Source: Antedon mediterranea (taxonomy: Eukaryota > Animalia > Echinodermata). Taken from it: 64,000 nucleotides of DNA. The DNA is taken from positions 4,370,201 through 4,434,200 of the forward strand of contig NC_092679.1 in assembly GCF_964355755.1 (NCBI RefSeq), read 5' to 3'. The notes beneath the pieces were generated by a model. The model was not told the origin of the DNA, ran no database searches, and saw nothing but the letters and a program-made list of their open reading frames with translations. The translations under genes and the position numbers were made by a program. Positions within the stretch are counted from its first letter, which is position 1; every line of letters starts with the position of its first letter. This document shows positions 38,301-40,850 of the stretch, piece after piece.

Positions 38301-40850
38301 TTAGTTTTTGTAAAAATGGCAAATGGGTGTGTACTACTAAGACATGCTGTAAGTTATTTATATTTTGTTACTTCATAATATGTTGTTATGCTACACACAG
38401 TACAATGTTCATATGTTCATAATGACAGTCTAATTTGTTCACAATTAATTTTTCAACATTTTTTGTCTTTTTTCTTCCACATTTACCTGGAACCTCATAG
38501 CTAAGTAAGTATTTTTGTTAATTTAAATTTTAACAATTTTCGATCATTTTGGTAGTGAAACAAAATGTTTAATATCAAGGCATTTGGAAGAATTGGATAA
38601 TAGCAGTTTTTTAGAAAGAACTAGCCTAACATCTATCATTTTTCTTCTTCAGAAATGACATTACAAATGTTCAGTTTTCGTTTACTCGTGAGTTTAGTTA
38701 TATTTATGGAAAAGAAGAAACGTTTATGCGGTATGTATTCCTGTATTGTCAAAAATAAAGTACTCACAAAACCGGACACCTTAGATAGCTCAAAGTGTTT
38801 TGATTTCTCTACTAAAGCTCTGTTTGCACTATCAACCTTTATGTGACAACTGTGAAGTGTCCATATATGGACATGATGATGTCATATCACTACCATATTT
38901 GGTAACATCACACGTAGACGGAGTTTAATCTTTCTTTCTCTTTTAATCACAGAGATCTTCAAAAGGATCTGGCATCTGAGTTTGATTTACCCATCCATCT
39001 AATACAAAATATGCAGGTATTGCTATTGTTTATTATCTCTTATCGCTAAACATATTTGTTTATTTTGATGTATTGAAATATAATCTATTTGCGCTATGTC
39101 AACCCTTTTAGTATTATGATATAAGTTTTGAACAATTATTATCAGATATATCCCCTATTTCTTTTAGGTTTCTCCTGGTAGCATCGTAGTTAATTTTGAC
39201 ATTGCTCAAGATGCTGACTTTGACTTAGACCTGAATCTTCTATTGGAAGTTGAAGAAACTGTAAGATCATTTTAATTTCATTTGCTTAAAATATTCATAC
39301 ACTTGGGTGATGTTCGCTGAACTCTGGGTTTCCTCTGGAAATAGTTAACTCTTGAATTCTCCCAAGTAGCAGTTAATTTAGTCGAGAGGAAGATGCTACA
39401 TAATATACACCCTGGCTGTGACAGATTACACCGGGCATGTTCATATTTTGAGAAACTAAATACCACTTTAAAGTCGCCTACCAAAAGACACTGTGGCATC
39501 AATACAATCAATAAATGTGTTTTGTAATTTGTACGCCTTGATAATGTCAACTTCGAAGTTTTCCTACACGATGTGTAGGTCTAAAGCTCTTTCCACACTA
39601 TCAAACTTTATGTGATAAAAAATGATATGCTTAAATATGGTAGTGATATATTACATCACCATGTCCATATATGGGCACATCACTACCATATTTGGGCACA
39701 TTAAACTTCTTTTTTCAAACTAGTCTGTAGACAGAACTTCATTGGTATAAGTGGAGATTATTTTTAAAACGTTCTTAATCATCTATCATCAATTACCGTT
39801 CCTTGAAAATTACAATTTTTTGCAATATTACTTCTTTTTTCAGATAACATCAAATTCATATAACTTCATGTTTGAAGGGGTGTCATATAGACCGAATCCT
39901 AACTCATTTAAAACGGTGACACGATCAGATCCAAATGTTGTTGATGACAAACAAACGGAAGAAGACGACGAAGAAGAGATTGATATGCTTATAATTGCCA
40001 TTGGTGCTGGCGGTGGTTTACTCGTGTTCGCCTTCATAGCAATAGTTGTTGTAAGTAGGCTATAATATAATAAATGTATTATTTTATGTATTTTGAAGCA
40101 AATCATTTATTTTTGTTGAAATTTAGTGGAGACCATCCCCACATCCACAATAAAGGTGTCCACTTTTCCTCCATGAACAACATTATACATTTGACGTTAA
40201 TATAACCATAATAATTTTCCTATATACCTATACATTATGATCAAGTTTTTAGGGATGACAGGGAGGTAATAATTAGATTGATTGTACAATTAAGTTCTGT
40301 TTTTTTTTATCTTATTATAGACTTGTTTTTACAAAAGAAAAAAGGTACCAGATAATTTGGTAAGTCAAATAAATTGTAATTGTAAAATATTCGGTATAAA
40401 ATTGCAACACTTATTTAAAATTAAACTAAAAGTATTGCATTAAAATTCATCCTTTTTTCTTATTCTTCTCCACTCTTTATCTCCACAATTTATCTCCACA
40501 TTACAATTTGCCCAATATCTTAAGACAGAGTTTGTAATACATTACTACTGTATTTTAAGGTTAGGTTTATGGCCTCTGTGATACATATATGACATTATAT
40601 GGCAATGTATCATAGAATCTGCTTATGATACAGGGCAAATTGTAGATACAGTACCATGAATCGACTAATTTAATTTTCCCATTTTTATATGTTTTTAAAA
40701 TAATTGTTATTATGTTGACAGGATTTTTTCAGGAAAGAAATGGAAGGGATTCCTAACAACACGCTAAGCGCAAAAGTGCAAGAACCAATCCATCGTGTCC
40801 GAACACTTCCGCCAGGTTATAAATACAACGACTACGAAGAATCAGAATAA
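26326..40850 (+). CDS. Type-I membrane protein, paralog A: signal peptide, about 21 EGF-like repeats, 5 VWC_out/pacifastin-like 6-Cys modules, SEA-like domain, TM helix, short tail
   Basis: Signal exon 26326-26389 ([21 protein letters not shown]). 19 single-EGF phase-1 exons from 26537-26662 to 33939-34082, and 2 more near 35054 and 35746. Two-exon C-x-CNxCxCxNGxWxCTxxxC modules near 34512/34699, 36044/36254, 36405/36746, 37005/37761, 38138/38305. Microexon 38501-38504. SEA-like exons 38653-38730, 38953-39016, 39168-39260 ([12 protein letters not shown]). TM exon 39844-40050. Tail exons 40321-40359 and 40722-40850 (TAA). Confidence 0.85.
32643..32930 (-). mobile_element. tRNA-derived SINE with Deu/Nin-type central core
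   Basis: Minus strand reads A box TGGCCGAGCAGG, B box GGTTCGAGGCC, then CTTCTCGGATAAGGACTATAAACCGTAGGTCC...TTAAAGAACCCAG...CGAAAAGAGTAGGGG. From memory this resembles the Deu/Nin SINE core. Confidence 0.65.
34202..34343. mobile_element. MITE family A copy
   Basis: Family A TIRs AGCTCTGTCTACA / TGTAGACAGAGCT. Confidence 0.7.
35302..35613. mobile_element. Degenerate relative of the TTAA element at 37133-37653
   Basis: TTAA|AGATG ... CATCT|TTAA ends and a shared internal CATAATAGTTATT...ACCAAAAATT. Confidence 0.45.
37133..37653. mobile_element. Non-autonomous TTAA-targeting DNA transposon (Kolobok-like)
   Basis: TIRs AGATGTATTGTCCCTT / AAGGGACAATACATCT with TTAA on both sides. Confidence 0.75.
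38501..38504 (+). other. 4-nt coding microexon (CTAA) of paralog A
   Basis: Polypyrimidine tract, then CATAG|CTAA|GTAAGT. It is required to join the phase-1 exon end (38348) to the phase-2 exon start (38653). Confidence 0.75.
38816..38925. mobile_element. MITE family A, degenerate copy
   Basis: Left TIR AGCTCTGTTTGCACTATC and the family A core. Confidence 0.6.
39585..39738. mobile_element. MITE family A, degenerate copy
   Basis: Family A TIR remnants and core sequence. Confidence 0.6.

What the first reader, a model, noticed from the sequence alone, without database searches (positions are those of the whole stretch)
38305..38730. 4-nt microexon whose skipping creates a junction stop right after the last extracellular Cys (paralog A)
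Seen: the last 6-Cys module exon ends ...ACA TGC T| (38348, phase 1), while the next large exon starts AAATGAC (38653) and is open into the SEA/TM frame only in phase 2. A 4-nt exon CTAA at 38501-38504, with a polypyrimidine tract, TAG acceptor and perfect GTAAGT donor, restores the frame (C-S-K-N-D-I). Skipping it joins T+AA into TAA, a stop with no extra residues. Inference: this tiny exon could toggle between a membrane receptor and a cleanly truncated secreted EGF/VWC ectodomain, or an NMD off-switch. Most characterised regulated microexons preserve frame, so a 3n+1 one is unusual.
Basis: partly seen in the sequence, partly recalled or inferred. Interest (0 to 1): 0.82.

Follow-up and report, generated by a model that had tools for sequence, protein, structure and literature searches.

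The report
Four-base exon in feather-star receptor gene
The spliced RNA of a feather-star cell-surface protein gene carries four extra bases that keep its reading frame open, most likely supplied by a four-base exon that annotation missed; the proposed switch to a secreted form was not seen, and the exon is probably always included.

Summary
The anatomy is real. A 4675-nt spliced contig from one RNA-like run joins the last 6-Cys exon to 38653 with exactly four extra bases, in frame. The contig's letters were not shown. They fit the microexon CTAA at 38501-38504 far better than a +4 donor, whose score is below all 37 true donors. The neighbouring paralog has a 7-nt counterpart (50456-50462) at the same place, and 4+78 = 7+75 nt gives a gapless alignment. 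NCBI's proteins for both genes start just after this junction, as a missed microexon would cause. The switch is not supported. No skipped joint was listed, though contigs drop rare forms. An immediate stop also follows skipping of 3 of 18 other frame-shifting exons. The stop lies 479 nt before the last junction, so decay is likelier than secretion. Paralog A also carries a SEA self-cleavage motif. Verdict: a probably constitutive, unannotated microexon in an EGF / pacifastin-like / SEA / transmembrane gene of Antedon mediterranea. The scan earlier noted a 1-nt exon elsewhere in this genome (unchecked).

The parts
38501..38504 (+). 4-nt microexon CTAA (paralog A), phase 1 in, phase 2 out; completes Ser and starts Lys between the last 6-Cys module and the SEA-like domain
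   Evidence: +4 nt shown in the RNA contig, identity of the letters inferred
38440..38500 (+). Microexon acceptor region: 70-nt AG-free zone, U-rich tract at about -42 to -25, weak TAG acceptor, no TGC within 60 nt
38505..38510 (+). Microexon donor GTAAGT, score 6.7, above 10 of 37 true donors
38305..38348 (+). Upstream exon, second half of the last 6-Cys module; donor at 38349; rival +4 donor at 38353 scores -0.8
38653..38730 (+). Downstream 78-nt exon, first strand of the SEA-like domain by homology to paralog B; holds the Met at which XP_071963244.1 starts
23791..41328 (+). Paralog A: 40 exons, ATG 26326, stop 40848-40850, 1322 aa: signal peptide, 21 EGF exons, five 6-Cys modules, SEA-like domain, transmembrane helix, tail
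   Evidence: exon sum 4674 nt against a 4675-nt contig; most inner exons supported by the length sum only
39168..39260 (+). SEA-like exon with a Gly-Ser-hydrophobic x3 motif (GSIVV, residue 1171), the self-cleavage motif type of MUC1
   Evidence: motif definition from PMC7349879; cleavage untested
39844..40050 (+). Exon with the end of the SEA-like domain, acidic stalk and transmembrane helix
50456..50462 (+). 7-nt candidate microexon CAAATAG of paralog B at the homologous place; donor score 8.5; skipping also gives T+AA
   Evidence: DNA only, no RNA laid
45303..52622 (+). Paralog B model: 18 coding exons, 498 aa: signal peptide, 5 EGF, three 6-Cys modules, SEA-like domain, transmembrane helix; its last 187 aa equal XP_071962282.1

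Best explanation
The spliced RNA of this gene carries four extra bases at this junction that keep the frame open, most likely supplied by the 4-nt exon CTAA at 38501-38504, which is probably included in nearly all transcripts. Inferred mechanism: the ectodomain is built from phase-1 modules (EGF exons, two-exon 6-Cys modules). The SEA-like module also starts in phase 1, and an old phase-2 intron just inside its start leaves a few bases as their own exon (4 nt in paralog A, 7 nt in B). A consensus donor and a U-rich tract set back 20-40 nt from the AG probably let the spliceosome define so small an exon. Skipped transcripts are probably splicing errors with a premature stop and would likely be degraded. 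The product is a predicted type I membrane protein; in paralog A a soluble ectodomain could come from SEA self-cleavage without any splice switch. Shown: +4 nt in RNA, splice signals, open frame, paralog anatomy. Inferred: the letters, constitutive inclusion, decay of skips, cleavage.
For: Contig pieces match the 40-exon model with the microexon position for position (38653-38730 = record 1012-1089; 39844-40050 = 648-854). The one other letter in 38304-38352 is what CTAA laid on GTAA gives. +4 donors score -0.8 (A) and 1.3 (B), below all 37 true donors; microexon donors score 6.7 and 8.5. A fitting 4-nt candidate arose in 1 of 2000 shuffles. Paralog B has the only loose candidate of its homologous intron, also 3n+1 (199 of 2000 shuffles give one). 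A and B align without gaps, 17 of 52 identical, only with both microexons; the +4 donor leaves B one residue short. Both NCBI proteins begin in the exon after the junction. About 81% of human micro-exons up to 51 nt are constitutive (PMC4317164 passages).
Against: The place of the mismatch was not printed, and alone it favours the microexon only 1.8 to 1. One contig of one run; tissue unknown; no inclusion level. Both acceptors score below all 38 true acceptors, which resembles regulated rather than constitutive micro-exons in PMC4317164, and that paper says constitutive micro-exons get rarer as size falls. Both paralogs keep T+AA at the skip junction. No ortholog from another species was found to test conservation.
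Confidence: 0.76

Rival explanations
1. Regulated switch: the microexon is skipped in some cells or stages, giving either a secreted EGF plus 6-Cys ectodomain ending at the last Cys (1118 aa in A, 308 aa in B) or an NMD off state.
For: Skipping gives a stop with no extra residue in both paralogs, which are only 26% identical in the annotated C-terminal part. Both acceptors are weak with the U-tract set back. Non-3n regulated micro-exons tied to decay are discussed in PMC4317164 (passage).
Against: The assembled major form is the included one. Zero-residue stops follow 3 of 18 other frame-shifting skips, and one frame-keeping skip also makes a junction stop; 9 of 39 exon starts would complete a stop after T. 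Intron flanks of the two microexons are no more alike than shuffles (434 and 1376 of 2000). No TGC within 60 nt upstream. The stop is 479 nt before the last junction, which argues against a stable secreted product (rule recalled).
Confidence: 0.13
2. No microexon: the upstream exon uses a donor 4 nt further on (38353), adding GTAA and reading C-C-K-N; CTAA is a chance intronic look-alike.
For: The aligner reports the joint as 38352 to 38653 with GT..AG ends; this form is also in frame, 1322 aa. One SNP in 49 nt is plausible, since X1 differs at 14 of 1196 letters in six other laid pieces.
Against: Donor score -0.8, below all 37 true donors, beside a consensus donor at 38349. It adds an unpaired Cys. 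It needs both a SNP and a 1-in-2000 look-alike. It opens a gap against paralog B. A canonical perfectly aligning junction should not have split the NCBI models (inference).
Confidence: 0.06
3. The microexon is real but slow to splice, so a share of transcripts keeps a flanking intron or ends in it; reading into the upstream intron would add 24 residues and stop, giving a minor soluble form.
For: Read-through of the intron stops after 24 extra residues. Plant constitutive microexons often have detained flanking introns (50 of 69, PMC8831610 passage).
Against: No X1 contig lies in the introns around the microexon (1 record laid in 37730-38795), though low-depth intronic contigs exist elsewhere in the gene. 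No AATAAA or ATTAAA in either flanking intron of A.
Confidence: 0.05

Closest known systems
Unannotated coding microexons of 1-15 nt (Yu et al. 2022, PMC8831610, plants; passages read)
   Same: Tiny internal coding exon, not a multiple of 3, missed by annotation, leaving a broken gene model; position and phase kept between related genes.
   Different: Animal gene; conservation seen only between two paralogs of one genome; inclusion level unknown.
Human constitutive and alternative micro-exons (Li et al. 2015, PMC4317164; passages read)
   Same: Short flanking introns (152 and 148 nt) and consensus donor as in constitutive micro-exons; a micro-exon at a paralogous position is also described there (APBB1-3).
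   Different: Far shorter than most of that set; proximal acceptor weak and U-tract further upstream than the 10-20 nt reported for constitutive ones.
SRRM3/4 (eMIC) neural microexons (review PMC12992808, passages)
   Same: Size class; a bilaterian.
   Different: Not 3n; no TGC in 60 nt upstream (motif recalled); no tissue data.
SEA-domain membrane proteins (TROP-2/EpCAM, SorCS2, MUC16, MUC1)
   Same: Model of paralog B's domain matches TROP-2 (Z 11.5, rmsd 4.0, 104 aligned), SorCS2 (Z 9.8) and MUC16 SEA (Z 8.5); membrane-proximal position; A has the GS-hydrophobic motif. Secreted splice forms of MUC17 by exon skipping are recalled; the paper was not held.
   Different: No Pfam SEA hit; no mucin repeats; EGF and 6-Cys arrays instead.
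Pacifastin-like domains (Breugelmans et al. 2009, PMC2689174; passages and section 15 read)
   Same: Six-Cys pattern; each module split over two exons, as in the Trichoplax gene.
   Different: Only 1 of 8 modules meets the strict spacing; the others have 16 or 20 residues between Cys1 and Cys2; membrane-anchored and mixed with EGF; activity untested. They may be vWF/VWC-related 6-Cys modules (recalled).

Membership tests
Coding microexon (15 nt or less) | Internal segment flanked by AG and GT in genomic DNA | tested here: met
   DNA runs agree
Coding microexon (15 nt or less) | Spliced RNA holds extra bases of that length at that junction | tested here: met
   +4 nt in the X1 contig; one run
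Coding microexon (15 nt or less) | The extra bases are the exon's letters and not a shifted donor | tested here: inconclusive
   one mismatch in 49 letters, place not printed; indirect evidence favours the exon
Regulated (alternatively spliced) microexon | Both included and skipped forms exist and vary by tissue or state | tested here: inconclusive
   only the included joint listed; contigs drop rare forms; one RNA-like run found
SRRM3/4 (eMIC) neural microexon | Length a multiple of 3 (typical) | tested here: not met
   4 and 7 nt
SRRM3/4 (eMIC) neural microexon | UGC motif near the acceptor (recalled) | tested here: not met
   no TGC in -60 to -1 in A or B
SRRM3/4 (eMIC) neural microexon | Neural-specific inclusion | not testable with these tools
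   no tissue-resolved reads
Splicing-coupled NMD switch | Premature stop more than about 50 nt before the last junction (rule recalled) | tested here: met
   479 nt
Splicing-coupled NMD switch | Skipped form rises under NMD block | not testable with these tools
   needs an experiment
SEA domain | Ferredoxin-like fold matching solved SEA domains | tested here: met
   paralog B model pLDDT 77-91 over residues 1-100; TROP-2 Z 11.5, SorCS2 9.8, MUC16 8.5, but Cas6 also 9.6; Atlas TM 0.79 to EpCAM-like; paralog A's own model was too poor (pLDDT 49.5)
SEA domain | Pfam PF01390 match | tested here: inconclusive
   no hit for P0001 (lacks the first strand) or P0002
Self-cleaving SEA domain | GS followed by three hydrophobic residues | tested here: met
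   present in A at 1171; absent at the aligned place in B; cleavage untested
Pacifastin inhibitor domain | Strict six-Cys spacing of PMC2689174 | tested here: not met
   1 of 8 modules strict, 8 of 8 with a longer first gap allowed
Pacifastin inhibitor domain | Protease inhibition through a P1 site between the last two Cys | not testable with these tools
   needs an assay; whole modules were not scanned against Pfam because introns split them
VWC domain | Ten cysteines (recalled) | tested here: not met
   six per module

The most novel reading that the evidence does not exclude
Two diverged paralogs each keep a frame-shifting microexon (4 and 7 nt) with a deliberately weak acceptor exactly at the ectodomain boundary, so that regulated skipping writes a stop out of the junction and releases a tail-free secreted EGF / pacifastin-like ectodomain: a four-base membrane-versus-secreted switch in an echinoderm.
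Probability: 0.1. Interest if true: 0.65.

Novelty: new member of a known kind. Interest (0 to 1): 0.3.

Why it matters
As it stands it repairs two gene models: NCBI lists only the C-terminal 178 and 187 aa as uncharacterized proteins, while the RNA contig supports one 1322-aa receptor for paralog A. It adds a paralog pair of 4- and 7-nt animal exons with the same set-back acceptor layout, a handy minigene pair for asking how exons this small are defined. If regulated skipping were shown, it would be an unusually small switch between a membrane protein and its free ectodomain.

Tried and rejected
No whole genome is held, so other paralogs were not searched. The run search listed 5 runs, none on record as RNA; X1 proved spliced when laid. 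The first lay-out over 19.5 kb was swamped by repeats; the second covered paralog A only, so B has no RNA test. No skipped joint was listed, which does not show absence. A search with one EGF exon of A found no protein at E 1e-12 or better among 10 candidates, so NCBI's handling of the N-terminal part is unknown. Searches with the transmembrane exons returned only the same-species proteins (1 of 66 and 1 of 26 candidates; 1 hit in the 50% library). Pfam gave nothing for four half-modules and the SEA-like exons (weak Kelch hits rejected). PDB sequence search gave only weak transmembrane matches (best E 0.067); Foldseek gave none at E 0.001 or better. Rejected: other acceptors near 38653 and other frame-restoring candidates in the intron, all with donor scores of 1.4 or less; conserved regulatory flanks between A and B. 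Paper searches: 'Antedon' with 'microexon' 0 papers; 'microexon, soluble, transmembrane, premature stop, skipping' 6 listings, none evidently a matching case by title or abstract start; 'microexons, misannotation, constitutive, reading frame' 0. PMC7521221 had no passage on MUC17 splice forms. No supplements were read. Look-ups of earlier scan notes near the place, by words and by sequence found nothing.

Full report
Observation. The window is AT-rich animal DNA with many short exons. I built a 40-exon model by snapping exon ends to AG and GT. With the 4 nt it encodes 1322 aa; without them T+AA stops it at 1118 aa.

RNA test. The run search listed 5 runs, none on record as RNA. Run X1 holds one 4675-nt contig of depth 113.9 that lies on separate exons from 23791 to 41328 and joins them at GT..AG introns that three DNA runs of one other sample do not join, so it is spliced cDNA. 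The model sums to 4674 nt and reproduces the contig's positions: 38653-38730 is record 1012-1089, 39844-40050 is 648-854, and four bases (1090-1093) sit between exon 38305-38348 and 38653. Only seven pieces of this contig were displayed; the other exons rest on the length sum. The aligner placed the four bases on the genomic GTAA at 38349-38352, with one other letter somewhere in that 49-letter piece, and did not print where. So the in-frame form is the assembled one, and two readings remain: the microexon, or a donor 4 nt further on plus a SNP. No skipped joint was listed, but contigs drop rare forms, and this is one run.

Microexon or +4 donor. The mismatch alone favours the microexon only 1.8 to 1, taking 14 differences in 1196 letters as the SNP rate. 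The rest is stronger. In a matrix trained on 37 other donors of the gene, the +4 donor scores -0.8, below all of them; the microexon donor scores 6.7. A loose 3n+1 candidate is not rare (4 of 37 other introns, 171 of 2000 shuffles), but a 4-nt one within a letter of GTAA arose in 1 of 2000 shuffles. A second gene at 45303-52622 has the same architecture, and the only loose candidate in its homologous intron is 7 nt long, also 3n+1, with donor score 8.5; shuffles give one in 199 of 2000. Microexon plus next exon is 82 nt in both genes and the proteins align without a gap, 17 of 52 identical; the +4 donor leaves B one residue short. Database hits name the species as Antedon mediterranea and show both NCBI proteins starting at a Met in the exon right after the junction (suffix checks). 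That is what a missed microexon would cause and an ordinary donor should not, though I could not find the N-terminal model. I put the microexon at about 0.94.

The protein. Signal peptide, 21 EGF exons (Pfam EGF confirmed on the 2 tested), five six-Cys modules each split over two exons, a membrane-proximal domain, one hydrophobic helix and a tail. The modules resemble the pacifastin pattern of PMC2689174 (passages and section 15): 1 of 8 meets it strictly and 8 of 8 with a longer first gap, so I do not file them as members; they are not full VWC domains (definition recalled). The membrane-proximal domain of B folds confidently and matches TROP-2 (Z 11.5), SorCS2 (9.8) and MUC16 SEA (8.5), with Cas6 at 9.6 as a reminder that the fold is common. 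EpCAM's domain is classed as SEA in PMC7349879 (passages). The model of A was poor. A carries the GS-hydrophobic self-cleavage motif described there; B does not. The microexon encodes the linker just before the first strand.

Is it a switch? For: both paralogs give a stop with no added residue, and both acceptors are weak (-1.8 and -5.1, below all 38 true acceptors) with the U-rich tract set back 20-45 nt. PMC4317164 links weak sites to regulated micro-exons and says constitutive ones get rarer with falling size (passages). Against: the clean stop is common here. Skipping each of the other frame-shifting internal exons gives zero new residues in 3 of 18 (2 of 11 in A, 1 of 7 in B; the ATG exons were not tested) and one residue in 3 more; skipping the frame-keeping exon 35746-35877 also makes a junction stop. 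The T is the first base of a Ser codon shared by homology, and 9 of 39 exon starts would complete a stop after it. The flanks of the two microexons are no more alike than shuffles, and neither has TGC upstream (motif recalled). The stop would lie 479 nt before the last junction, which predicts decay under the recalled 50-nt rule. About 80% of human microexons are 3n (PMC8831610 passage), but about 81% of micro-exons up to 51 nt are constitutive, so a 3n+1 exon that the open frame needs is most simply an obligatory one.

Mechanism. Shown: splice signals, +4 nt in RNA, open frame, paralog anatomy. Inferred: an old phase-2 intron just inside a phase-1 SEA-like module leaves a 4- or 7-nt exon; a strong donor and a set-back U-tract allow its definition; skips are errors that decay; paralog A may shed its ectodomain by SEA self-cleavage. 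Confidence 0.76; regulated switch 0.13; +4 donor 0.06; intron retention 0.05.

Novelty. Tiny non-3n exons that break annotation are a known kind (PMC8831610). I found no paper with both 'Antedon' and 'microexon'; the library lacks most subscription journals and no supplements were read. An unreviewed scan note reports a 1-nt exon in this genome's APC11 (e1-10604150), which I did not test. Verdict: new member of a known kind, interest 0.3; the switch reading has about 0.1 probability and would merit 0.65.

Noticed in passing
window 45303-52622: Paralog B, 498 aa, same domain order, with a 7-nt candidate microexon at 50456-50462 and a 64-nt exon at 48477-48540; no RNA laid.
   Followed up: partly
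window 38653-40850 and 50837-52622: NCBI proteins XP_071963244.1 and XP_071962282.1 cover only the part after the microexon in each paralog; probably split models.
   Followed up: partly
window 34512-38348 and 48477-50299: Eight two-exon six-Cys modules with pacifastin-like spacing in a deuterostome, where PMC2689174 (2009) found none; seven of eight have an acidic or polar residue after Cys-Thr (Glu in 4 of 5 in A). Could be vWF-type modules.
   Followed up: partly
window 39259-39610: Low-depth X1 contig (6.3 against 113.9) in the intron after exon 39168-39260; pre-mRNA, DNA or an intronic 3' end that would drop the transmembrane helix.
   Followed up: no
window 38653-38730: X1 differs from the window at 4 of 78 letters in this exon, against 0 of 93 in two upstream exons.
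   Followed up: no
window 38405, 38494, 38649: Allelic differences in the DNA runs near the microexon (8-nt deletion, C>T at -7 of the microexon acceptor, T>A at -4 of the next acceptor); none touches AG, GT or the four bases.
   Followed up: no
window 15862-21142: Lamin B receptor-like gene: LBR tudor hit E 2.6e-08, followed by an RS-rich exon and hydrophobic exons.
   Followed up: no
window 4410-4853: Proline-rich exon ending in a WH2-like stretch (label recalled; no Pfam hit).
   Followed up: no
window 55478-59374: Uninterrupted 1298-aa frame that looks like an LTR retrotransposon polyprotein (label by eye).
   Followed up: no
window 34200-34345, 38810-38910, 39580-39710: Short high-copy interspersed repeat, very deep in all four runs laid.
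   Followed up: no
window 60200-64000: Tandem-repeat array giving repetitive open frames.
   Followed up: no
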